The notes under the pieces were generated by a model. It saw only the letters and a list, made by a program, of their open reading frames with translations, was not told the DNA's origin and made no database searches. 16,128 bases of DNA, taken from NCBI GenBank assembly GCA_048884785.1, contig JBHLQM010000027.1, positions 1 to 16,128 on the forward strand. The letters are read 5' to 3'. Shown in pieces: positions 3-15,665 of this stretch; positions within the stretch are counted from its first letter, which is position 1, and the number at the start of each line of letters is the position of its first letter. This DNA is from Candidatus Thorarchaeota archaeon (GTDB lineage Archaea; Asgardarchaeota; Thorarchaeia; Thorarchaeales; Thorarchaeaceae). A program made the translations under genes and the position numbers.

Positions 3-503
3 AGTCACTCTTTCGACAATCCTGAGGTCATAGATTTCACACAATCAGTCATAGAAACTTGGATGCCTTCGAAAAAACCAATCCTATTTGTTCCTTGTTC
101 GAAGCACAAGCCAATTCAAGAATCGCTGAGCCACAAACAGATGTTTCATCGTTTTCGAGATAAGCTCGATTTGCTAATCTTATCAGAACCTCTAACAATA
201 ATCCCCTATGACAGATTCGATTACCCTGATTATGATTATCCTCCCTACGCACTTTGGAGAATTGAAGGAGAATCTGACAAATTCAAGGACCGACTAACTA
301 CATTTCTTGAGATAAAGAAACTGAATAACTATTATTGCTTCTTCTTTACTCCCCACCATCATCTTATGGTCCTATGGCCAGCTTGGAAGAGGGCTTTTGG
401 TGACATTTCGGGGCTTCGTGGGTATTCATATACTCAAGCAACGAGATGGTTCTTTCTTCAGAAACTGGAACAGGATTTGTCAGGGTTCTATGATGGAGTG
501 TAG
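3..503 (+). CDS. DUF5591/archaeosine synthase (ArcS)-like domain protein, 5'-truncated by the window edge
   Basis: The frame is open from base 3 ([22 protein letters not shown]...). Motifs SFx[17 protein letters not shown] and SEPL..IP....YP.YDYPP resemble the ArcS/TgtA2 'PCS.KPYS.S.SH' domain. The stop overlaps the atpB 3' end. Confidence 0.6.
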
Positions 504-1888
504 GCTCGACGTTCCTTGGCCCAAGATATGGTCTCTGGATCGCATCTCTTCAATTCTCTCTCTGGAAACTCACTTAGAAGATTCCAACCAATATCGAGAG
601 TCTGTTCAAAGGACCTGTCCTCATACTCACCTTGGCCTATGAATTCCTCTTCAAATCGATCTGCAAATTTCAGATATTTTTGATCACGATCAGTTAGAGC
701 CTCAGAACCAACTACAGCAACCAGGTCACGTAAATCACGACCCTCAGAGTATGCATAGTATAGCTGTGCTTGGACCTCCTTGTGATCGAAGCGAGTCATT
801 CCTTCACCAATTCCCTCTTTCATCAGTCTGCTGAGTGACGGACCTGGATCAATTGGGGGATAGATACCTCTTCTGTGGAGGCCTCTTCCTACAATGGTCT
901 GACCCTCGGTGATATAGCCAGACAGGTCAGGAATTGGATGAGTCATGTCATCTTGGGGCATAGAGAGAATTGGCATCTGAGTGATAGTTCCCTTTCTACC
1001 ATTTATACGACCTGCACGCTCGTAGATGAGGCTTAGGTCAGTGTATAGGTAGCCAGGATACCCACGCCTGCCTGGAATCTCTGAACGAGCCGCACTGATT
1101 TCTCGCAGTGCCTCGGCGTAGTTTGTCATGTCAGTAAGAATGACCAAGACGTGCATATCTGATTCATATGCAAGATATTCCGCCGCAGTGAGAGCGGCTC
1201 TTGGTGTGATAATTCGCTCAATTGCAGGGTCATTGGCAAGGTTAAGGAAGAGTGTGGTATGCTCAAGTGCACCTGTTTCTTCAAAGGAATTGATAAAGTA
1301 TTGAGCTTCAGTGGCTGTAATGCCCATAGCGCCGAACACAATGGCAAAATCACCTTCCTCACCGGGGATTTTTGCCTGACGTACAATCTGGGCTGCAATT
1401 CTATTGTGCGGAAGTCCAGAACCTGAGAATATTGGCAACTTCTGTCCACGTACAAGCGTATTCAGACCATCAATAACAGATAACCCCGTCTGAATGGGTT
1501 GCCTAGGATACTGCCGTGCATAGGGATTTATCGGTGAGCCATAAATGTCCCAGTGATCTTCGGCTGTTAGCTGAGGACCTTTGTCAAGCGGATTTCCTGC
1601 ACCGTCTAGTACTCTACCAAGAATCTCTGTTGACACAGGAAGCTTCATTGTCTCGCCTGTAAAGCGAACTGCGGTCACATCGGAATCCAGTCCACTTGTT
1701 CCTTCAAAGACCTGAATGACTGCGCGACCACGACCTGTCTCTAAGACAGTACCGGTGAGTAGGTCACCATTTGGTGCCCTGATCTTGACGACCTCATTGT
1801 ATGATACGTTGTGTGTGCAATCCACAATCAGAAGTGGACCACTTACATCTGATACAGTTCTATAGACGATGGAGGACTCGTTTGCCAT
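488..1888 (-). CDS. atpB: A/V-type ATP synthase subunit B
   Basis: 466 aa with motifs [67 protein letters not shown]. Confidence 0.98.
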
Positions 1889-1945
1889 TGATTAACCCGC
1901 CTTAGTTTCTACTAAACCGATAGCGGCGCCTTAATGGTACACCAG

Positions 1946-1961
1946 TTTTAAGAGTTGCGAA
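1946..1961 (-). promoter_or_regulatory. Putative BRE-TATA promoter for atpB (TTCGCAACTCTTAAAA)
   Basis: Purine-containing BRE-like CGCAA followed by TTAAAA, about 60 nt upstream of the atpB ATG. The first 13 nt are identical to the element upstream of rpl35ae. Confidence 0.6.
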
Positions 1962-1976
1962 GTGTAATGTTGAACT

Positions 1977-2489
1977 TCAAATCCAAGGAGCGATATGCAA
2001 AAACGCGAGTATAGGAGCAAAAATCAGCGCTCGCACAACGAGCGAGTGACCGCGTGACTTTAGGTCTCCAGAAGTGGGATTAAAGTAGAGTATTGCACCA
2101 ACAAGCACACAGACCGCAGCCACAATATCTCCTATTGCAATAAGAAGTGCAACCAACTGACTTTCATACAATCCAAAGACACCATACCAAGTGGCTGTTG
2201 CGTTGTCAAATGAGAGCATTCCGAGTCCGGCTGCTGAAGCAAGAAAGTTGGCAAACATGGGACCAACAAAGTATATTCCAATTCCCGTAACCACAAGCCC
2301 CTTTGCAAATCCATCACTCAGACCTGTAGTGTATACCATGAATCCGATAAGGATGAACAATAGGTATCCGTTGACTGAAACGGCATAGAGTAGATTCAAT
2401 ATTGTTTCAATTACTCCAAGCCATTCAGGAAGTGGTGTGACCTCAAAGGGTGTCTGTAATAACAAGGCAAAGACGCTATTGAAAGCCAT
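1977..2489 (-). CDS. Membrane protein with two tandem VirB2/TrbC-pilin-like hydrophobic hairpin repeats
   Basis: About four hydrophobic helices. Internal repeat FILIGFMVY..GFAKGLVVTGI vs CVLVGAILYF..KSRGHSLVVRALI. GAGG SD precedes ATG 2489 (alternative GTG 2498). TTATAT TATA-like box near 2522-2527. Confidence 0.55.
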   Translation of the reverse strand: MAFNSVFALLLQTPFEVTPLPEWLGVIETILNLLYAVSVNGYLLFILIGFMVYTTGLSDGFAKGLVVTGIGIYFVGPMFANFLASAAGLGMLSFDNATATWYGVFGLYESQLVALLIAIGDIVAAVCVLVGAILYFNPTSGDLKSRGHSLVVRALIFAPILAFLHIAPWI

Positions 2490-2534
2490 TGGCCTCACAT
2501 AATATCAGTTTGTGACTGGTAATATAACCGCCAC

Positions 2535-3095
2535 TTATGCCAGTTCTTTCCTTAGTTTTTCGAAGTCTTTCCGCATTACCTCTTTCAGTTCAGGATTTCT
2601 AAGAGCTGCAGCGGGATGGTAGGTCATGAAGAATTTCTGTCCGTTTGCCTCATAGAACCTTCCATGAGCCTCATCAAGCTTCCATGGACCTATCAAATTA
2701 GAAATTGCGACTCCGCCTACTAATACGATTACCTTTGGGTTGATAACCGCAATCTGACGTTCAAGGTATGGTTTACAGGCCGTGACCTCTGACTTGTGTG
2801 GAGTTCGATTATTGGGAGGACGGGATTTCAGTATTGAAGTGATGAATACCTCATTTTCTGTGAGGCCTATTTCTGCAATCAGATTTCTCAGAAAGTTACC
2901 CGATCTACCGACGAAGGGACGTCCTGTGGCGTCTTCGCTTGCACCGGGTGCCTCACCGATGAACATCACCTTTGCATTCACAGGCCCTTCTCCTGGCACA
3001 GCATTCAAACGAGTTTCATGTAGCCCGCATTTGGTACATGCCGCAATCTCATTGTGAATTTCCTTGAGGATCTTTTCTGGATTCATCTTCAACAT
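2535..3095 (-). CDS. udg: Uracil-DNA glycosylase, family 4
   Basis: Motifs CxxC (CTKC), VPGEG, GEAPGxxED, PFVGRSG, RPPNNRTP and motif B YHPAAALR. The true start may be ATG 3086. Confidence 0.93.
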   Translation of the reverse strand: MLKMNPEKILKEIHNEIAACTKCGLHETRLNAVPGEGPVNAKVMFIGEAPGASEDATGRPFVGRSGNFLRNLIAEIGLTENEVFITSILKSRPPNNRTPHKSEVTACKPYLERQIAVINPKVIVLVGGVAISNLIGPWKLDEAHGRFYEANGQKFFMTYHPAAALRNPELKEVMRKDFEKLRKELA

Positions 3096-3106
3096 GTGTT
3101 GAACAT
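3085..3106. promoter_or_regulatory. Near-perfect palindrome over the udg start, candidate operator
   Basis: ATcTTCAACA-TG-TGTTGAAcAT, just downstream of a minus-strand TTTTTATTT TATA-like box (3111-3119). Confidence 0.4.
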
Positions 3107-3151
3107 CCCCAAATAAAAACCACTTCAGTAGATTAGTGGCTTGTTTTAGTA

Positions 3152-4954
3152 CTAAACAGAGGGGGCAACAACACCGCTCTCTGAGAGTTCCTTGTATAAA
3201 GCTTCGAACTCTCGATTCATCTTGTCTTCCAGTGCATCCATTGATTTATCATAACTGTCCCATGGGGCAAGCTTCATTCTCGCAATATTGTCAAGAACAC
3301 TGAATTCTAGGATTCTACGAACACTGACACCTAGAGAAACAGCCTCAGCCATCTTGCGCGAGAAGTTGATGATAATCCTCAGCATGCGGTATGTCTTTCC
3401 AAGAGGTGAATATGTATCAATCTCATGAATAGCACTCTGTGTCAGGAAGTCCTCCTTTATCATTCGAGCAGCTTCCAAGGTTGCACGCTCTGATTCAGGA
3501 AGTGCATCAGGTCCAACTAGCTGCACAATCTCACGAAGCTCCTGGTCCTTCTGCATCAATGCCATAGCCTCCTTTACTAGTTGAGGCCAATCTTCACCCA
3601 GATTCTCTTTGTGCCACTTATCCAGTGTTGTGTGATAGAGCGAGTAGCTTGTGAGGGCATTGATTGCAGGGAAGAAGCGTCTTGCTGCAAGATCCTTATC
3701 CAGCGCCCAGAAGACCTTAACGATACGAAGAGTAGCTTGGGTAACTGGCTCTGAGAAGTCACCACCAGGTGGCGATACTGCACCACAAATAGTAATCGAT
3801 CCGGCGCGATCCTCTTTACCAAGAGTCTTCACTCGGCCACCACGTTCATAGAATTGTGCCAGTCTTGATCCGAGGTACGCAGGGTATCCTTCTTCCGATG
3901 GCAGCTGACCTAGCCTACCGGATATCTCACGAAGTGCCTCAGCCCAGCGTGATGTGGAGTCTGCCATGAGTGCAACATCAAAACCTTGGTCACGGAAATA
4001 CTCGGCCAATGTTACTGCGACATAAATCGAGGCTTCACGTGCTGCTACAGGCATGTTTGATGTGTTGGCAATAAGAACAGTACGTTCCATTAGTGGCCTG
4101 CCGCTTTGAGGATCATTAAGGTGTGGCCACTCTTCAAGCGCCTCAGTCATCTCATTACCACGTTCACCACACCCCACATAAACAACGACTTGTGCATCCG
4201 CCCATTTAGCGAATTGATGAAGTGTCACTGTCTTTCCGGTACCGAATCCTCCAGGAATCGCTCCTGTTCCACCCTTTGCCTGAGGCATAAATGTATCAAT
4301 AACTCGCTGACCAGTGATAAGAGGTATTGCAAGGGGGACTCGTTCCTTAAATTGACGGCCAATTCTGACAGGAGTCTTTTGCATCATGATAACATCATGA
4401 ATGTCGCCATGTTCGTCCTTCACCTTGCATATTGTTTCGACAACTGTGTACTCTCCCTTTGAAACAATCTCTACAATCTCGCCCTTTACTCCGCGAGGAA
4501 TCATGATTCTTGAGGTAATGATTCCAGTTTCGGGGACTTCACCAATGAAGTCACCAGGTTCAACATGATCCCCCACCTTAACTGTTGGTCTGAATTCCCA
4601 CTTCTTGTTCCTATCAAGCCCTTCAATATAGAGACCACGAGTAATGAAATCACCCGAAAGCTCCTTCAAACCAGGCAAAGGTCTTTGAATTCCATCATAG
4701 ATTGATCCAAGCAATCCGGGACCAAGCTCAACTGAGAGGGCATCACCTGTTGCAACGACAGGCTCACCTGGCGCAAGGCCAGATGTTTCTTCATAGACCT
4801 GAGCAGTGAATTCCTTATCACTGACTTCGATAACCTCTCCGATTAGCCGTTCGTTTCCAACTCTGACAACCTCATACATACGTACTCCAGTAATGCCAGA
4901 GCATATAACGACGGGGCCCGCGATGCTCTCGATTTTGCCAACTTCTTCAGTCAT
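3152..4954 (-). CDS. atpA: A/V-type ATP synthase catalytic subunit A
   Basis: 600 aa with Walker A GGFGTGKT, YVGCGERGNEM, NTSNMPVAAREAS, MADSTSRWAEALRE, GAVSPPGGDFSEPVTQ. No intein. Confidence 0.98.
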   Translation of the reverse strand: MTEEVGKIESIAGPVVICSGITGVRMYEVVRVGNERLIGEVIEVSDKEFTAQVYEETSGLAPGEPVVATGDALSVELGPGLLGSIYDGIQRPLPGLKELSGDFITRGLYIEGLDRNKKWEFRPTVKVGDHVEPGDFIGEVPETGIITSRIMIPRGVKGEIVEIVSKGEYTVVETICKVKDEHGDIHDVIMMQKTPVRIGRQFKERVPLAIPLITGQRVIDTFMPQAKGGTGAIPGGFGTGKTVTLHQFAKWADAQVVVYVGCGERGNEMTEALEEWPHLNDPQSGRPLMERTVLIANTSNMPVAAREASIYVAVTLAEYFRDQGFDVALMADSTSRWAEALREISGRLGQLPSEEGYPAYLGSRLAQFYERGGRVKTLGKEDRAGSITICGAVSPPGGDFSEPVTQATLRIVKVFWALDKDLAARRFFPAINALTSYSLYHTTLDKWHKENLGEDWPQLVKEAMALMQKDQELREIVQLVGPDALPESERATLEAARMIKEDFLTQSAIHEIDTYSPLGKTYRMLRIIINFSRKMAEAVSLGVSVRRILEFSVLDNIARMKLAPWDSYDKSMDALEDKMNREFEALYKELSESGVVAPSV

Positions 4955-6006: not shown

Positions 6007-7353
6007 GTGGTCCTAGAAGGCTTAGGTAAATCCCTGAACTCGGCACTAAAGAAACTGTTTGGTGCTAGTGTCTTTGATGAGGAGCTAGTGAAAGAGCTTG
6101 TCAAAGACATTCAAAGAGCACTGCTTGTGGCAGATGTTGATGTAAACCTTGTAATGGCAATCACAAAGAGAGTTCAAGAAAAGGCGTTAGATGAGAATCT
6201 GCCTCGTGGAGTTTCACGGCGCGAACACATCATTAAGGTAGTATGGGATACCCTGGCATTCTTCCTAGGAGAGAAGGCAATTCCTCTTCAGATTAACCCT
6301 GGCAAGCCCAATCTCGTGATGATGATTGGAATTCAAGGCTCAGGAAAAACAACTACTATCGGAAAACTCGCAAGGTATTATCAGAAGCGCGGCATCAAGA
6401 CCGGTGTAATCTGTGCCGATAATTTTCGGCCAGGAGCGTACAGTCAGCTGAAGCAACTCGCCGAAAGGTCGAATGTGCCATTCTGGGGCGATGAGGGGGA
6501 AAATGACGCTGTCAAACTCGCAAAGAATGGCTTCAAGGTGATGAAAGATAAAGGCATAGAACTGATTCTTCTAGATACCTCTGGTCGGCATCGAGAGGAA
6601 ACAGGACTCATCAAAGAGATGAGAGATATATCAAAAGCTGTCAAACCGCAAGAGATTGTATTGGTCGTTGACGGGACGCTAGGCCAGCAGGCGGGTGTTC
6701 AGGCGGGCGCATTCAAGAATGCCACGGACATTGGATCGATAATCGTCACCAAATTAGATGGCAGCGCAAAGGGTGGAGGGGCGCTTTCTGCAGTTGCCGC
6801 TACAGGTGCTCCAATCAAGTTCATCGGCACCGGTGAAGGAATGGATGCTATTGAATCATTCAACCCAACAAAATTCGCTGGACGCCTTCTTGGGATGTCT
6901 GATATCCGGGGTCTTATTGACAAGGTGAGAGAAGCCCAGATTGAGATAGATGAAGATGCAACTATGCGTATTATGAAGGGAAAATTTACACTCACAGACA
7001 TGATGGCACAGCTGAAGCAGCTCAAAAAGATGGGACCCATTGGAAAAGTCATGGAGATGTTGGGATTGCAGTACAAACTCCCAGACGATATAGCAGAGGT
7101 TCAAGAAGAGAATCTCAAGCGATTTGAGGTCATCATGAATTCCATGACCAAACAAGAGCTTGATGAGCCAAAGCTAATCAAATCTTCTAGAATCAAGAGG
7201 ATTGCGAGAGGCTCAGGGGCTTCTGAGAGGGATGTGAGAGAGCTGCTCAAACAATATGAGAATATGAAGAAAATGATGAAACAAATGGGCAAGTCGCGAA
7301 AACGAGGCGGCAGGGGAGGATTTCCAAATATACCCGGAATGCCTGGTATGTAG
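6007..7353 (+). CDS. srp54: Signal recognition particle 54 kDa protein
   Basis: NG domain with GIQGSGKTTT, DTSGRH, TKLDGSAKGGGALS; Met-rich M domain with SRIKRIARGSG. GTG start after GGTGA. Confidence 0.98.
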   Translation: MVLEGLGKSLNSALKKLFGASVFDEELVKELVKDIQRALLVADVDVNLVMAITKRVQEKALDENLPRGVSRREHIIKVVWDTLAFFLGEKAIPLQINPGKPNLVMMIGIQGSGKTTTIGKLARYYQKRGIKTGVICADNFRPGAYSQLKQLAERSNVPFWGDEGENDAVKLAKNGFKVMKDKGIELILLDTSGRHREETGLIKEMRDISKAVKPQEIVLVVDGTLGQQAGVQAGAFKNATDIGSIIVTKLDGSAKGGGALSAVAATGAPIKFIGTGEGMDAIESFNPTKFAGRLLGMSDIRGLIDKVREAQIEIDEDATMRIMKGKFTLTDMMAQLKQLKKMGPIGKVMEMLGLQYKLPDDIAEVQEENLKRFEVIMNSMTKQELDEPKLIKSSRIKRIARGSGASERDVRELLKQYENMKKMMKQMGKSRKRGGRGGFPNIPGMPGM

Positions 7354-7949: not shown

Positions 7950-8009
7950 AGAAATCTTCATAATGATGTCGTCATAGAGTAGTAGTAATAATGAAAAAGG
8001 GTGCCTTCT

Positions 8010-9185
8010 GTGCCAACCAACGTAACTCCAGAATTTGACAAGCAAAGGCAGGTCTACGAGGATACAGAAGGCCTTGAACAGAGAATAGTGGAGCTAGAGA
8101 AGCTTCTTTCTCTCGCACCTAAACATAAAGGTGCTGAGCGAATGCGTGCCGACTATCGAAAGAAGCTTGCAACATTGAAAGCTCAATTGGAAAAGGAGAG
8201 GGAACAGAGCAGAGCGCGTCGTACTGGATCAAGTGATGAAGGCGTCATCAGAAAAGAAGGAGCTGGCCAGATTTGTCTAGTGGGAGTGACAAACAGTGGA
8301 AAGTCTACCATTATCAACTCTGTGACAAATGCGGAATTAGAGATTGCTACATATCCATTTACTACAGCACTTCCAACTCCCGCAATGCTTGCTTTTGAGG
8401 ATATCAATATTCAACTGGTTGAGATACCGGGTCTCTTTGAGGGGAGCTATGATTCCAGTATAGGAAGGCAGTCTCTTGGAGTGGTCCGAAATACTGATTG
8501 CATCGCAATTGTAATAGATCTCTCACAGGATATTGAGATGCAGATGAAAGCTATTCTTGGCGAATTGGATCGTGCCAGGATTAGACTGAACCATGAGAAG
8601 TCTGCAGTTAGAATTGAGAGAGTCGGAGTGGGCGGGCTGCAAATCTATGGAAGTCAATACTTTGATGGAACAAAGGAGGACGTGATGGAGTACCTTCGCG
8701 CCCGCAAGATCAGTAATATCATTGTAAGATTTCAGAAACCAGCAACATTCCAGCAGCTTGCAGATGCAATGGATGCAAGTGTGGCATATGTCCGTGCACT
8801 GATTATTGCGTCAAAGGGAGATGCTCCTGGATCGAAAGAGAGGTTCGCTGAACTGGAATCCGATTATGGAGATAGGTTTGATATAGTTCCGGTATCGGCT
8901 CAAAAGAAAGAGAACCTTGATGGAATGAGCTGGGCTTTCTATGATCATCTGGATATTCTAAGAATATACACCAAGATTCCTGGCAGGAAACGAGAAGACA
9001 AACCAATCGTACTACCAGTAGGTTCTGTGATAGAGGATGCAGCTGCCAAAGTACACAAGATACTGTTCGTGGAACGTTTCAAGTTTGCCACTATAATCAG
9101 AGAGAATGACAAAATCAAGCGCCGGCAAGTAGGCCTCAACTACCCTCTAGAAGAGGGGGACATTATTCAATTGGCACATAGATAA
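8010..9185 (+). CDS. OBG-family DRG-type GTPase with C-terminal TGS domain
   Basis: MPTN-type N-terminus (GTG 8010; alternative 8001), PKHKG, G1 GVTNSGKS, G2 YPFTT, G3 EIPG, G4 SKGD, TGS RIYTK.PG...VGLNYPLEEGDII. Confidence 0.92.
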   Translation: MPTNVTPEFDKQRQVYEDTEGLEQRIVELEKLLSLAPKHKGAERMRADYRKKLATLKAQLEKEREQSRARRTGSSDEGVIRKEGAGQICLVGVTNSGKSTIINSVTNAELEIATYPFTTALPTPAMLAFEDINIQLVEIPGLFEGSYDSSIGRQSLGVVRNTDCIAIVIDLSQDIEMQMKAILGELDRARIRLNHEKSAVRIERVGVGGLQIYGSQYFDGTKEDVMEYLRARKISNIIVRFQKPATFQQLADAMDASVAYVRALIIASKGDAPGSKERFAELESDYGDRFDIVPVSAQKKENLDGMSWAFYDHLDILRIYTKIPGRKREDKPIVLPVGSVIEDAAAKVHKILFVERFKFATIIRENDKIKRRQVGLNYPLEEGDIIQLAHR

Positions 9186-12774: not shown

Positions 12775-13695
12775 TCAACCTCCCAGTGCAGCAAGTATCA
12801 GCAGGGGAAAGATAATAGTTGCATCGCCTATAACAGACTCGAAGGAAGCCTCTGTCTGGACTTTCTGCCATGAAACTCCCTCTTCCAGCGGGGCTCCACC
12901 CAGACTTCCACCTTCTGGTCGGTCAAGCGTGATTTGAACAGCAAGATCAAGTCCACCTTTTAGAATCGTACTACCCATGGTAAAGTGCTTGGATAGTCCT
13001 CCACCAAGCATAATCGCGCCAGTCTTCCGAGAGTTGGTCACAATCTCCCCCAGTATTCGAAGGTCTTTAACAAAATCCAATGAGAGTTTGTTTGTAGTGC
13101 TGTAGGTGTACATATGGAAGCCCAACATCGAGTCCATGAGTCCTGGCGAGAAGATGGGGACTTTCTTTCGTGTCGCCTGAAATACAATGGACTCTTCATC
13201 TTCAATTGTGCTTCCAAGTTTGGTGAGAAACTCGCTTGGTGAGAATGTTGTTCTCTCTTCGACGCTGAGGCTATCGAGAAAGCTGTAGATTTGGGATTCA
13301 AAGGTTTCAAAGTCCTTCTCCTGTACATAGAGGTCAGCAATTCGGCCCATTCCTGCCGCCCTCAGCTCGGAGTCATCCTTGTGGCTTGGCACTCGGTAGT
13401 GAGCTCCTCCATATGCCTCTACAAGATCATGAACAATGTTGGCTCCGCTTGTGATTATGACATCTATGTATCCATCTCTGACCAGATGAGAAACGATTTT
13501 TCTTAGCCCTCCTGGAACCATAGGACCAGACATGGAGAGATATGTCAGATAGTCCGTTTCATTAAACAACTTGGATACGATTGCTGCCGCACGTCCCAGT
13601 CTTCCCGCCCCAAGCACTCCGACATCATTCATAGACTTTACGAGATCGGACACAGATGTGATATCGCCTAAGTCAATATGGGACACTCTCTCCAT
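12775..13695 (-). CDS. dhs: Deoxyhypusine synthase
   Basis: SGPMVPGGLR, TSGANIVHD, GRIADLY, PGLMDS, GGGLSKH, and GSLGGAPLEEGVSWQK with the catalytic Lys. True start is ATG 13695 after GGTGA; the ORF-track extension to 13836 is not DHS-like. Confidence 0.95.
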   Translation of the reverse strand: MERVSHIDLGDITSVSDLVKSMNDVGVLGAGRLGRAAAIVSKLFNETDYLTYLSMSGPMVPGGLRKIVSHLVRDGYIDVIITSGANIVHDLVEAYGGAHYRVPSHKDDSELRAAGMGRIADLYVQEKDFETFESQIYSFLDSLSVEERTTFSPSEFLTKLGSTIEDEESIVFQATRKKVPIFSPGLMDSMLGFHMYTYSTTNKLSLDFVKDLRILGEIVTNSRKTGAIMLGGGLSKHFTMGSTILKGGLDLAVQITLDRPEGGSLGGAPLEEGVSWQKVQTEASFESVIGDATIIFPLLILAALGG

Positions 13696-13810
13696 TATTA
13701 TCACCGGACATTCGACCAGTGAGCTGGAGAGATAAGTCATTCTGTTGGGATTGGGGTAGGTGTGCGGGGTCGAAGCACTTTGGGAGGGCTTGAATCGAGC
13801 CCGCACATCT
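13687..13810 (-). promoter_or_regulatory. Structured 5' leader of dhs (upstream hairpin plus SD/AUG-sequestering hairpin)
   Basis: Hairpin at 13758-13810. Second hairpin TCTCTCCA-gc-TCACTGG-loop-CCGGTGA-taataa-TGGAGAGA at 13687-13732 pairs the SD and the UG of AUG. Confidence 0.5.
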
Positions 13811-13968
13811 GAAAAAATCAATGCTATGTATATCACGAATGATGTTCAGGTTTTTCTTAGGTTGTAATTCATTCATTAGAACGGATGCGACATGGAGAGG
13901 GAACCGAAAGTATTTGCACTGCGCCCAGTTCCATAACCTTAAACATGCGAAATGATGAAGTCTTTTGT

Positions 13969-14604
13969 ATGCAGGCTTTCATCAGCGATACTATCATCAT
14001 GATTGTACTCACTGCTCTATTCGTCCAGATGGTATGGATGACTATTGCTCGCAGAGCACGAGATAGATACCTTCGAGATATGGCCAATTTCAGAAAACCA
14101 GAGTCCCCATTCTCACGCTATTACGGATGGCGAGTGGATAGCCTCCGCAACTCTATTCTCGATGGCGTCGCTGTTGAAGTCATTTTGATTGTATCATTGC
14201 TTCTACTGCTATTCCTTTCCCTAGAACCATTTGAGATTCCAAGTGTATTCCCCGTAGTAATCTTCGTTATAGTCCTCTCTTCTATGAGCACTGCTCAAAC
14301 AGCTTACAGAGTAAAGGGACTCAAATTCAGAGAAACCCTGATTTCAAAGGAATTGGAGCTTTCAGTAGACAAAGTGGCCGCTGCTAGGAACATGGCAATT
14401 AATCTTCTATCAGCTGGAAAGGCTGCAGATGGTAGAGTTTGGTTTGCATTGTATAGGGTGGGTCAAAGGCAAGATCCAATTGGCTGGTCGGTACGAGATG
14501 TTCTTCTAGATGAGGAATTGAAGTTTATGTATCAGGGGATGCCAATAGGTGAAGGGCCAAAAACCGATGAGGCCTCCTCTTCTGATGGTCCAGGTATCAA
14601 TTAG
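13969..14604 (+). CDS. Hypothetical membrane protein (about three TM helices)
   Basis: Long ORF with hydrophobic segments and an acidic low-complexity tail. The likely start is ATG 13969, about 25-30 nt after a CCTTAAAC TATA-like box (leaderless). Confidence 0.7.
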   Translation: MQAFISDTIIMIVLTALFVQMVWMTIARRARDRYLRDMANFRKPESPFSRYYGWRVDSLRNSILDGVAVEVILIVSLLLLLFLSLEPFEIPSVFPVVIFVIVLSSMSTAQTAYRVKGLKFRETLISKELELSVDKVAAARNMAINLLSAGKAADGRVWFALYRVGQRQDPIGWSVRDVLLDEELKFMYQGMPIGEGPKTDEASSSDGPGIN

Positions 14605-14703: not shown

Positions 14704-14988
14704 ATGTCGACAAGTGATACAATCAAAGGCCAAAAAGGCGTTGTCGTAAGCTATCGTAGAGGAAAGCATCTACTACATCCAAACCAAGTAATTCTTCTAT
14801 TTGACACTGTGAAGACTAGATCAGTTGCTGCATCCCTCGTAGGCCGTAAGGTCAAGTGGGTATCAGAGACCGGAAAGGACTTTCTAGGAAAGGTTCTCGG
14901 TGCACATGGAAACAGCGGTGCAGTTCGGGCAAAGTTCAGGACCAACCTTCCAGGTCAGGCTATTGGTACTCCCGTCTATCTTGAGTGA
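14704..14988 (+). CDS. rpl35ae: 50S ribosomal protein L35Ae (eL33)
   Basis: KGVVVSYRRG, LVGRKVKW, GKVLGAHGNSGAVRAKFRTNLPGQAIG. Confidence 0.96.
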   Translation: MSTSDTIKGQKGVVVSYRRGKHLLHPNQVILLFDTVKTRSVAASLVGRKVKWVSETGKDFLGKVLGAHGNSGAVRAKFRTNLPGQAIGTPVYLE

Positions 14989-15026
14989 TTTCATCAGTTT
15001 TATTTGTTCATCACAGGATGATAATA

Positions 15027-15099
15027 TGGCTCCAGTGATGACCATTGGCTAGATGAGGGTGAAAGCCCGATGATGTGTCATAGTTAGTCGGAGGAGCCA
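15027..15099 (+). ncRNA. Box C/D dual-guide methylation sRNA
   Basis: Terminal stem TGGCTCC/GGAGCCA; box C GTGATGA 15035-41; D' ATGA 15053-56; GGGT-GAAA-GCCC hairpin; C' ATGATGT 15070-76; D CGGA 15089-92. Spacers are 11 and 12 nt, and a T-tract follows. Confidence 0.85.
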
Positions 15100-15122
15100 C
15101 TTTTCTAATAGTAGGGATTCCA

Positions 15123-15665
15123 ATGATTCAATGGATTATCTATTTCTTTGCCTATCTGATGGCGGGACTCACTCTAAAGATAGGAGATGATTTGCTTGAT
15201 TTTTTGGACCGTCCCTCACTTGCATGGTATCCGCTTGGCATGTCGGGTATTCTATTTGGAGTTCTGATGACACTCAGCGAATGGGATTTAGTTCTTCTAT
15301 CTGCAATTGTGATTGGAGTCCTATTATCAGGAAAGGTCAATCATAGACAGTTTGGAGTGGGATTCATGGCAATCATTGTCATTTTGCTTATTCTTGGCCT
15401 TCCAGCTATCTCTGATCTCCTGAATTGGTTTGCCCTGCTATTCATGCTATTCATGGCTTCAGTACTTGATGAGAAAGGGAATGATTGGACTGACAAGGCA
15501 ACCAATCCACTTGCATCAATGTTCTTCAAATATAGATTCACACTCAAGGTGAGCGCGCTTTTACTGGCAATCCCGTGGCTTGGTTTCCTGCCTACTGCGA
15601 TAGGTCTATTGATTTTTGATGTGGGGTATGAGCTGGCAGGCTGGATGACTAGACACCTGATCTAG
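15123..15665 (+). CDS. Conserved-type archaeal multi-pass membrane protein with a KxxDDxxD motif
   Basis: About six hydrophobic helices; motifs KIGDDLLD, SGKVNH, LDEKGND, FFKYR. Confidence 0.7.
   Translation: MIQWIIYFFAYLMAGLTLKIGDDLLDFLDRPSLAWYPLGMSGILFGVLMTLSEWDLVLLSAIVIGVLLSGKVNHRQFGVGFMAIIVILLILGLPAISDLLNWFALLFMLFMASVLDEKGNDWTDKATNPLASMFFKYRFTLKVSALLLAIPWLGFLPTAIGLLIFDVGYELAGWMTRHLI

What the first reader, a model, noticed from the sequence alone, without database searches (positions are those of the whole stretch)
15027..15099. Unannotated dual-guide C/D sRNA aimed at 23S rRNA helix 69, the site equivalent to eukaryotic snR63/SNORD46 targets
Seen: both box pairs fold as K-turns (stem, 3-nt bulge, tandem G.A/A.G). 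The D guide contains GTCATAGTTA (15077-86), a perfect 10-nt complement of UAACUAUGAC, the H69 loop sequence in eukaryotes and several archaea. The N+5 rule from box D gives A1913 (E. coli numbering), equivalent to yeast 25S Am2256 (snR63) and the human SNORD46 site. The D' guide CCATTGGCTAG pairs with UAGCCAA(A)UG about 20 nt downstream, giving C1934. Targeting two nearby sites is typical of archaeal dual guides. Inference: a possibly Asgard guide for a modification site shared with eukaryotes, lying downstream of a ribosomal protein gene, which loosely recalls eukaryotic snoRNA host-gene linkage.
Basis: partly seen in the sequence, partly recalled or inferred. Interest (0 to 1): 0.8.

Follow-up and report, generated by a model that had tools for sequence, protein, structure and literature searches.

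The report
Thorarchaeal helix-69 methylation guide RNA
This is a real small box C/D guide RNA gene in an Asgard (Thorarchaeota) genome, conserved across Asgard archaea. It most likely directs 2'-O-methylation of the same ribosomal RNA nucleotide in helix 69 that yeast snR63 and human SNORD46 direct; it is a known kind of gene, from a family that RNA databases do not yet hold.

Summary
Window 15027-15099 (+) is a genuine box C/D sRNA gene. It has a 7-bp terminal stem, box C GUGAUGA, an 11-nt D' guide, D' AUGA, a 4-bp hairpin, C' AUGAUGU, a 12-nt D guide and a D box CGGA (most relatives have CUGA).

- **Distribution:** single-copy in 80/86 genomes of its family (Thorarchaeota) and, with a broader model, in 123/151 genomes of the phylum.
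- **Structure:** both stems covary (9/11 pairs changed on both sides).
- **D guide:** it pairs 11 contiguous bp with 23S helix 69 of a same-genus genome. That places the A1913 equivalent (yeast Am2256, snR63) opposite N+5. All 20 genomes holding both RNAs select the same A, with compensatory guide/target changes.
- **Correction:** this lineage's loop reads UAACUAUGAG, not ...GAC. G15077 is therefore unpaired and the duplex extends 3' instead. The window genome's own 23S is not assembled.
- **D' guide:** pairing to C1934 is short (7 bp here, 5-9 in relatives) and only moderately supported.
- **Transcription:** the gene has its own conserved BRE/TATA-like element, so rpl35ae does not host it.

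It is a new member of a known kind. No expression or methylation data could be obtained.

The parts
15027..15099 (+). Whole box C/D sRNA (about 73 nt)
   Evidence: Covariance-model hit at 15026-15100, 86.7 bits. It is the only copy in the genome. The MFE fold keeps both stems, z = -3.06.
14995..15004 (+). BRE/TATA-like promoter element (cAGTTTTATt), centred about 26 nt upstream of the RNA 5' end
   Evidence: Consensus AA(G/C)TTTTATC at -31..-22, 83-100% A/T, with the top base in 38-46 of 52 loci. Flanking positions vary. It is also present where rpl35ae is displaced.
15027..15033 (+). 5' strand of the terminal stem (K-turn C-stem)
   Evidence: Pairs with 15093-15099. Six of the 7 pairs show changes on both sides in relatives.
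15035..15041 (+). Box C, GUGAUGA
   Evidence: The UGAUG core is invariant in 20 homologues.
15042..15052 (+). D' guide (11 nt). The core UGGCUA is at least 90% conserved in the family.
   Evidence: Pairs 7 bp with UAGCCAA of 23S (E. coli 1931-1937), with N+5 = C1934.
15053..15056 (+). Box D', AUGA (variant of CUGA)
   Evidence: Aligned with CUGA in most relatives.
15057..15068 (+). Internal hairpin (4 bp plus GAAA loop) that serves as the C-stem of the C'/D' K-turn
   Evidence: 98-100% of cells paired; 3 of 4 pairs changed on both sides.
15070..15076 (+). Box C', AUGAUGU
   Evidence: Aligned with GCGACGA / AUGAUGA in relatives; the GA is invariant.
15077..15088 (+). D guide (12 nt). UCAUAGUUA is invariant in 20 aligned family homologues (one G.U variant, G004, among 52).
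   Evidence: 11 contiguous bp with helix 69 of the same-genus 23S. 0/500 shuffles reach it. N+5 (T15084) faces the A1913 equivalent.
15089..15092 (+). Box D, CGGA (variant; the GA is invariant)
   Evidence: Aligned with CUGA in most relatives. Also seen are CGGA (5 genomes of this genus), CCGA, CAGA and AUGA.
15093..15099 (+). 3' strand of the terminal stem
   Evidence: See the 5' strand.
14704..14988 (+). Context: ribosomal protein L35Ae gene, which ends 38 nt before the sRNA
   Evidence: Pfam PF01247, E = 1.4e-19. Within 120 nt upstream on the same strand in 46/51 loci.
15123..15665 (+). Context: conserved 180-aa membrane protein gene with no known family, starting 23 nt after the sRNA
   Evidence: No Pfam or NCBIfam match. 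Within 150 nt downstream on the same strand in 48/51 loci.

Best explanation
Window 15027-15099 encodes a box C/D sRNA, transcribed from its own BRE/TATA-like promoter just after the rpl35ae stop codon. The RNA folds into two K-turns (C/D and C'/D') that L7Ae should bind, and these recruit Nop5 and fibrillarin.

The 12-nt D guide pairs with the loop and 5' stem strand of helix 69 of 23S rRNA. It places the A1913 equivalent (E. coli numbering) five nucleotides from box D, so that fibrillarin 2'-O-methylates it. This is the position of yeast 25S Am2256.

The D' guide pairs more weakly with the strand 18-24 nt downstream (UAGCCAA). It either directs methylation of C1934 or merely helps hold the region open.

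- **Shown here:** gene anatomy, conservation, stem covariation, guide/target complementarity and its covariation, presence of the core protein genes, and the conserved promoter-like motif.
- **Inferred:** transcription, RNP assembly and the methylation itself.
For: 1. **Anatomy.** All four boxes, 11- and 12-nt spacers, and two K-turn geometries are present.
2. **Family-wide conservation.** The gene is single-copy in 80/86 family genomes and in 16/16 genera.
3. **Phylum-wide conservation.** A broader model finds one hit per genome in 123/151 genomes of the phylum, covering 23/27 families. The 15 weak hits that were spot-checked all show boxes plus the ..AGUUA.. guide.
4. **Stem covariation.** 93% of cells are paired. 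8/11 and 9/11 pairs change on both sides. 0/500 shuffles reach this, and slid controls pair only 26-51%.
5. **D-guide match.** It makes 11/12 contiguous pairs with helix 69, reached by 0/500 shuffled guides. It is the top-ranked site in the whole 23S in 9/9 family genomes.
6. **Same target A everywhere.** In 20/20 genomes with both RNAs, the same A lies opposite N+5.
7. **Guide/target covariation.**
   - C1910 pairs with guide N+2 G in the window's family f1 (Thorarchaeota) and in family f5 (family numbers are the search tool's anonymous labels). G1910 pairs with N+2 C elsewhere.
   - CUGUGA in the rRNA goes with CACAG in the guide in G177.
   - UAUAA goes with UUAUA in G060, G038 and G048.
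   - GACUC goes with GAGUC in G037.
8. **Core proteins.** Nop5 and fibrillarin are adjacent on C25, and two L7Ae-family genes lie on C19.
9. **Promoter.** A conserved promoter-like motif lies at -31..-22.
10. **Selection in the CGGA subclade.** Compensatory stem changes occur within the subclade that carries CGGA/AUGA boxes (G005 and G001 against G000). Selection therefore persisted after the box change.
11. **Literature.** Helix 69 is a known archaeal 2'-O-methylation hotspot (PMC4644070).
Against:
- The window genome's own 23S is unassembled, so the target is read from congeners.
- The D box has G instead of U at position 2, giving U.G instead of U.U next to the sheared pairs. D' starts with A. 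Neither variant was tested for L7Ae binding.
- The D' duplex is only 7 bp here and 5-6 bp in G010 and G014. One relative (G014) changed the rRNA without compensating in the guide.
- Equally long matches of the D' core exist elsewhere in 23S and in tRNA D-arms.
Confidence: 0.85

Rival explanations
1. The RNA is a real C/D sRNA, but only the D guide directs methylation. The conserved D' core (UGGCUA) provides accessory pairing next to helix 69 (a chaperone or extra base-pairing role), or is a decaying guide. C1934 is then not methylated in this organism.
For: - D' pairing is 7 bp here and 5-9 bp across the family.
- It is not significant rRNA-wide (344/500 shuffles).
- D' boxes have lost the GA in several genera (CCUAGG, CUUAGG, AAUGC), yet UGGCUA stays conserved.
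- Extra pre-rRNA base-pairing that aids methylation is documented for yeast snoRNAs (PMC3116282, listed).
- Lui et al. describe dual guides within 100 nt as folding chaperones (PMC6009581).
Against: - The window's D' retains the GA and a full K-turn geometry.
- G004, G006 and G017 have 8-9 bp, and G017 carries a compensatory change (U1937 with guide A).
- Orthologues in other families have unambiguous 8-13-bp D' duplexes with covariation on the same strand.
Confidence: 0.35
2. The copy in this subclade is a decaying pseudogene. The D box CGGA and D' AUGA would abolish K-turn formation and L7Ae binding, so the RNA no longer works.
For: Both D-type boxes depart from CUGA in the same five genomes of the genus (G000, G001, G003, G005, G006).
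Against: - The sheared-pair GA dinucleotides are intact.
- The guide, the promoter-like motif and both stems are conserved within the subclade, with compensatory stem changes (GGCUCC/GGAGCC against GGUCCC/GGGACC; GGG/CCC against GGA/UCC).
- Position 2 of box D also varies elsewhere in otherwise conserved orthologues (CCGA, CAGA, AUGA, UGGA).
Confidence: 0.05
3. The element is not a guide RNA. It would be a K-turn-containing 5' leader that regulates the downstream membrane-protein gene through L7Ae binding, or a chance motif.
For: The sRNA ends 20-113 nt before the downstream gene on the same strand in 48/51 loci, with no room for a second promoter in the window.
Against: - A regulatory leader would not need an invariant 9-nt stretch that tracks helix 69 sequence changes across 20 genomes.
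- In other Asgard families the RNA occurs without that downstream gene.
- Chance is excluded by the covariation and shuffle tests.
Confidence: 0.03

Closest known systems
Archaeal box C/D sRNAs that target helix 69 of 23S rRNA (sets described by Dennis et al. 2015, PMC4644070; Lui et al. 2018, PMC6009581)
   Same: - Same RNP class and the same four-box architecture with roughly 12-nt guides and the N+5 rule.
- Helix 68/69/71 is a reported methylation hotspot with dense predictions around E. coli A1912.
- Two guides aimed at nearby sites are common: about 45% of sRNAs aim both within 100 nt.
   Different: - Those sets come from Thermoproteota, Methanococcus, Methanopyrus and Nanoarchaeum; none is from Asgard archaea.
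- This RNA is longer (73-77 nt). Its C'/D' motif is a full K-turn closed by a hairpin, not a short K-loop.
- The D box varies at position 2.
- The exact sites of the published guides could not be read from the held supplement because column spacing was lost.
Yeast snR63 / human SNORD46 (U46)
   Same: - Same target nucleotide: the second A of the UAAC in the helix 69 loop (yeast Am2256, two residues before Psi2258 = E. coli 1915).
- The guide next to box D is used, as in the Neurospora snR63/U46 homologue CD33.
   Different: - No sequence or structure match: neither family appears among the Rfam matches even at E <= 10.
- The eukaryotic genes are intronic in Neurospora; this one has its own promoter-like element.
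- Guide similarity is forced by the shared target, so homology can be neither shown nor excluded.
Yeast snR75 (Gm2288) and snR13 (Am2280/2281), the H70/71 methylation cluster (PMC4174444)
   Same: - The D' guide aims at the same strand between helices 69 and 71.
- In Asgard families f7, f8, f9, f13 and f18, the orthologue's D' guide puts the G1945 equivalent opposite N+5. By colinear numbering this is yeast G2288.
   Different: - In the window's family the D' guide has moved to C1934, which is yeast C2277, next to m5C2278. One search lists the methylations of this region (m5C2278, Am2280/2281, Gm2288), and C2277 is not among them.
- The numbering transfer assumes no indels between E. coli 1915 and 1945. 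Only residues named in the paper were checked (U2268, U2269, U2274, A2275, G2283).
Rfam archaeal C/D families (sR11, sR14, sR22, sR34 and others)
   Same: Generic box similarity: all 11 sub-threshold Rfam matches are C/D-box families.
   Different: The best score is 16.1 bits against gathering cut-offs of 32-58. There is no hit at gathering thresholds, so it belongs to no curated family.

Membership tests
Box C/D sRNA (archaeal 2'-O-methylation guide) | Box C (RUGAUGA) near the 5' end and box D (CUGA) near the 3' end, brought together by a terminal stem into a K-turn (3-nt bulge, tandem sheared G.A/A.G) | tested here: met
   - Box C is GUGAUGA; the stem has 7 bp; the bulge is AGU.
- Both sheared pairs are possible.
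- Box D is CGGA, so the consensus U is replaced by G, giving U.G in place of U.U. Relatives have CUGA at the aligned columns.
Box C/D sRNA (archaeal 2'-O-methylation guide) | Internal C' and D' boxes | tested here: met
   D' is AUGA (15053-56) and C' is AUGAUGU (15070-76). Together with the hairpin 15057-68 they form a second K-turn.
Box C/D sRNA (archaeal 2'-O-methylation guide) | Guide spacers of about 12 nt between C and D' and between C' and D | tested here: met
   The spacers are 11 nt (15042-52) and 12 nt (15077-88).
Box C/D sRNA (archaeal 2'-O-methylation guide) | Guide complementarity to rRNA or tRNA with the target opposite the fifth nucleotide upstream of D or D' | tested here: met
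   The D guide makes 11 contiguous bp with helix 69. This is the top site in 9/9 family 23S rRNAs, with 0/500 shuffles reaching it, and covariation across 20 genomes.
Box C/D sRNA (archaeal 2'-O-methylation guide) | A second (D') guide with its own convincing target | tested here: inconclusive
   - 7 bp to UAGCCAA (C1934).
- Rrna-wide, 344/500 shuffles do as well.
- Within 60 nt of A1913, only 3.4% of shuffles do.
- Pairing is 5-9 bp in relatives.
- Rival 7-nt matches exist in tRNA D-arms and elsewhere in 23S.
Box C/D sRNA (archaeal 2'-O-methylation guide) | Core proteins L7Ae, Nop5 and fibrillarin encoded by the organism | tested here: met
   - Nop5 at C25:19593-20270.
- Fibrillarin at C25:20402-21073.
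- Two L7Ae-family genes on C19.
Box C/D sRNA (archaeal 2'-O-methylation guide) | Stable small transcript; methyl group present at the predicted site | not testable with these tools
No RiboMeth-seq data are on hand.
SNORD46 / snR63 (Rfam eukaryotic families) | Match to the family covariance model | tested here: not met
   Neither family is among the matches of 14990-15135 at E <= 10 against all 4227 Rfam models.
SNORD46 / snR63 (Rfam eukaryotic families) | Guides 2'-O-methylation of the helix 69 loop A (yeast A2256) | tested here: met
   The predicted target is the same nucleotide by numbering from Psi2258 = E. coli 1915. This is a prediction only.

The most novel reading that the evidence does not exclude
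This single-copy, pan-Asgard dual guide may be the archaeal lineage counterpart of eukaryotic snoRNAs. Its D-guide site (A1913) is the snR63/SNORD46 site. In many Asgard families its D' site (G1945) is the snR75 site. Guide RNA genes for these two sites would then have been inherited vertically from the Asgard ancestor into eukaryotes and later split into separate snoRNAs. Thorarchaeales would have re-aimed D' to C1934.
Probability: 0.15. Interest if true: 0.75.

Novelty: new member of a known kind. Interest (0 to 1): 0.45.

Why it matters
**A testable guide in a poorly charted group.** No catalogue of Asgard C/D sRNAs turned up in the held literature. This genome seems to hold only a handful of recognisable ones. 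This one is single-copy and was found in 23 of the 27 families sampled in the phylum.

**A shared modification site.** It predicts that the helix 69 loop A is 2'-O-methylated in the closest archaeal relatives of eukaryotes, as it is in yeast and human. Helix 69 forms intersubunit bridge B2a and contacts A-site tRNA.

**What it offers in practice.**
- A concrete site to test once Asgard ribosomes or RiboMeth-seq data are available.
- A covariance model with which the gene can be annotated.
- A natural series of D-box position-2 variants (U, G, C, A) for K-turn studies.

It does not change what is known about how C/D RNPs work.

Tried and rejected
- **Rfam.** Nothing at gathering thresholds. At E <= 10 there are only generic C/D-box similarities.
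- **Own 23S rRNA.** None is in the assembly. The one other UAACUAUGAC in the genome (C92) is not rRNA.
- **A second D-guide site.** A site 264 nt downstream of A1913 (ACUGACUAUG; 10 Watson-Crick pairs plus one G.U at N+4) recurs in about six family genomes. It is missing in G008, G015, G017 and in the other families, so I treat it as coincidental.
- **Coding-region candidates.** Three candidate sRNAs with D guides to the same H70 strand (C28, C7, C2) lie inside long same-strand ORFs and were dismissed.
- **D' guide against tRNAs.** It gives only 6-7-nt matches to D-arm UAGCCA. This is no better than the rRNA site and does not explain the 8-9-bp matches in G004, G006 and G017.
- **Strict four-box scan.** It finds only 4 candidates, 3 of them doubtful. 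The relaxed scan gives 25 against 11 in the control. The sRNA count of this genome therefore remains unknown.
- **Published helix 69 guides.** Their exact positions could not be read from the supplement because alignment spacing was lost.

Full report
**What is in the sequence.**
Window 15027-15099 on the + strand reads, in order:
- a 7-nt stem strand (15027-33) and one spacer base;
- box C GUGAUGA (15035-41);
- an 11-nt spacer (15042-52);
- AUGA (15053-56);
- a 4-bp hairpin with a GAAA loop (15057-68);
- AUGAUGU (15070-76);
- a 12-nt spacer (15077-88);
- CGGA (15089-92);
- the complementary stem strand (15093-99).

Each has a Watson-Crick stem, a 3-nt bulge and tandem sheared G.A/A.G pairs. 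The D box is not the consensus CUGA, because G15090 replaces the U and gives U.G where C/D K-turns normally have U.U. The minimum-energy fold keeps both stems (z = -3.06). Rfam has no family for it. There is nothing at gathering thresholds, and only sub-threshold generic C/D-box similarities appear at E <= 10 (best 16 bits).

**Whose genome.**
The window is contig C27 of a 3.6-Mb, 91%-complete assembly with 43.7% G+C. Relatives of its A-type ATPase A subunit are almost all 'Candidatus Thorarchaeota' MAGs. NCBI places these under Promethearchaeati, the Asgard archaea. The genome encodes Nop5 and fibrillarin side by side, plus two L7Ae-family proteins. Its 16S rRNA sits at the very end of a contig, and no 23S is assembled. 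All target statements therefore rest on the 23S rRNAs of relatives, including two of the same genus (G004, G006).

**It is a conserved gene.**
BLAST found homologues in same-genus and same-family genomes. An alignment of 20 shows invariant UGAUG, GGCU, the GA of each D-type box, and UCAUAGUUA. On the two stems, 93% of cells are paired. Eight of 11 pairs have changes on both sides, no shuffle of 500 reaches the observed values, and partners slid by 1-3 columns pair only 30-51%. With 47 distinct sequences the figures are 9 of 11 pairs and 48 doubly changed cells.

A covariance model from the 20 finds exactly one copy in 80 of 86 genomes of the family, in all 16 genera. A second model, built from the out-of-family hits, finds one hit per genome in 123 of 151 genomes sampled from the phylum, in 23 of 27 families. 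Its E-values are rough and the model encodes the guide. I therefore inspected fifteen of the weaker hits, and all show C, D', hairpin, C', the ..AGUUA.. guide and a D box.

**The D guide and helix 69.**
In all nine family genomes with a 23S, helix 69 reads GAC-UAACUAUGA-GUC. The window's guide pairs 15078-15088 with ACUAACUAUGA, which is 11 contiguous Watson-Crick pairs, and C15089 of the D box could add a twelfth. No shuffled guide of 500 does as well against 23S plus 16S. In all nine genomes this is the best site in the whole 23S locus.

T15084, the fifth nucleotide upstream of box D, faces the second A of UAAC. That A is A1913 in E. coli numbering, because the following CU is C1914 and U1915. 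Yeast Psi2258 corresponds to E. coli 1915, so the A is the position of yeast Am2256, guided by snR63 (PMC2794176). snR63 is listed with U46 as its homologue in Arabidopsis and human (PMC2780460).

It matches the eukaryote-like loop UAACUAUGAC rather than this lineage's UAACUAUGAG, so G15077 is unpaired here. The sister family of the same order (G037) has GACUC in its rRNA, and there the same G is paired.

**Guide and target change together.**
Across 20 genomes that hold both the sRNA and the 23S region, the same A lies opposite N+5, and the contiguous duplex is 6-12 bp (mostly 9-11). The differences are compensated:
- Thorarchaeota-type and f5 genomes have C before UAAC and G at guide N+2. The other families have G and C.
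- G177 has CUGUGA in the rRNA and CACAG in the guide.
- G060, G038 and G048 have UAUAA and UUAUA.
- One lineage (f6/f7) has an uncompensated A/C opposition at N+8.

I regard this as the strongest evidence that the D guide reads helix 69.

**The D' guide.**
The window's 11-nt D' guide pairs 7 bp with UAGCCAA, 18-24 nt downstream of A1913. Taken alone this is weak. 344 of 500 shuffled guides find a 7-bp run somewhere in the rRNAs. Equally long matches exist elsewhere in 23S and in tRNA D-arms.

Three things raise it:
1. Only 3.4% of shuffles find such a run within 60 nt of A1913. The figure is 0.2-1% for G004, G006 and G017, which have 8-9 bp. Kin are not independent.
2. G017 has U at 1937 and a compensating A in the guide.
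3. In every other family examined, the orthologue's D' guide pairs 8-13 bp with the same rRNA strand and shows clear covariation (UUGCCGGAU, UUGUCGGAC and UUGUCUAGU, each with its complement). That places G1945, or G1940 in f5, opposite N+5.

Against it:
- G010 and G014 have only 5-6 bp, and G014 changed its rRNA without compensation.
- Several genera have lost the GA of D' while keeping UGGCUA.

I put methylation of C1934 in this organism at about even odds. The alternative is accessory pairing of the kind described for yeast snoRNAs (PMC3116282).

**Transcription and linkage.**
The arrangement is 239-aa protein, then rpl35ae, then the sRNA, then a 180-aa membrane protein, all on one strand. 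It is conserved in the family. rpl35ae lies within 120 nt upstream in 46 of 51 distinct loci, and the membrane-protein gene within 150 nt downstream in 48 of 51. rpl35ae also directly precedes the sRNA in G037 and G060, which belong to two other families.

The sRNA nevertheless has its own promoter-like element. This is AA(G/C)TTTTATC at -31 to -22 from the RNA 5' end. It is strongly conserved while its flanks vary, and it is present even where rpl35ae lies 0.6-1.1 kb away. In the window it is 14995-15004, centred about 26 nt before 15027, the usual archaeal TATA-to-start distance (established knowledge).

The resemblance to eukaryotic host-gene linkage is therefore not supported. If anything, the downstream gene, which starts 23 nt after the sRNA with no room for another promoter, may be co-transcribed with it. 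That is inference.

**Box variants.**
Position 2 of box D is U in most orthologues. It is G in five genomes of this genus and in G187, C in genus g12, A in part of g4 and in G037, and other forms occur elsewhere. Within the CGGA/AUGA subclade the stems still show compensatory changes. This argues against decay.

**Comparison with what is known.**
Helices 68, 69 and 71 are reported 2'-O-methylation hotspots in archaea, with dense predicted sites around E. coli A1912 (PMC4644070). About 45% of Pyrobaculum sRNAs aim both guides within 100 nt (PMC6009581). Haloarcula has Gm at E. coli 1909 in the same helix (PMC2584109). The kind of element and the kind of target are therefore known.

What is new is the family, its presence throughout the Asgard sample, and the coincidence of its site with the eukaryotic one. 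I found no Asgard C/D sRNA catalogue in the held literature. Descent of snR63/SNORD46 from this family can be neither shown nor excluded, because guide similarity is dictated by the target and nothing else matches.

**Verdict.**
It is moderate for the D' target and not supported for the host-gene analogy. No expression or methylation evidence could be obtained.

Noticed in passing
L206, L211, L217, L095, L097, L103 (orthologous sRNAs of other Asgard families) against their 23S loci L036, L037, L035, L195, L196, L201: In families f7, f8, f9, f13 and f18, the orthologue's D' guide pairs 8-13 bp with E. coli-equivalent 1941-1953 and puts G1945 opposite N+5. By colinear numbering this is yeast Gm2288, the snR75 site. 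One Asgard sRNA thus covers two sites that separate snoRNAs guide in yeast. In f5 the D' guide has slid to G1940, and in Thorarchaeales to C1934.
   Followed up: partly
23S loci L039, L038, L040, L042, L043, L187-L193: The closing base pair of the helix 69 loop is flipped in the window's family and in f5. They have C before UAAC and G after UAUGA, where other Asgard families, E. coli and yeast have G...C.
   Followed up: partly
L034 (G038), L037 (G048), L199/L207 (G037): These 23S rRNAs carry short insertions of about 28-55 nt, or more, exactly between helix 69 (CUCUUAA) and GGUAGCC. The insertions may be introns or micro-expansions in an otherwise invariant stretch.
   Followed up: no
window 15123-15665 (+) and 13885-14604 (+): The 180-aa multi-pass membrane protein just downstream of the sRNA and the 239-aa protein upstream of rpl35ae match no Pfam or NCBIfam family. 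Both are conserved in position across the family. The downstream gene may share the sRNA's promoter.
   Followed up: partly
G000 contigs C13:22248-22315 (+) and C53:6926-6985 (+): Two further intergenic candidates for C/D sRNAs have 9-nt D-guide matches to 23S (positions 138 and 795 of the G006 23S). C43:27960-28017 (-) is a third candidate with a CGGA D box, but it overlaps a long open frame on the opposite strand. The genome appears to hold few recognisable C/D sRNAs.
   Followed up: partly
23S of G006, G014, G016, G009 and G004, 264 nt downstream of the A1913 equivalent: The D guide has a second near-complement there (ACUGACUAUG; 10 Watson-Crick pairs plus a G.U at N+4 for the window's guide). 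It is not conserved in G008, G015, G017 or in other families.
   Followed up: yes
G000 contig C29:35826-37319: The 16S rRNA ends one base before the contig end and no 23S is assembled. This is the usual collapse of the rRNA operon in a MAG.
   Followed up: yes
window 488-4954 (-), 6007-7353 (+), 8001-9185 (+), 12775-13836 (-): The remaining context is ordinary housekeeping: A-type ATP synthase B and A subunits, SRP54, a DRG-like GTPase with a TGS domain, and deoxyhypusine synthase.
   Followed up: partly
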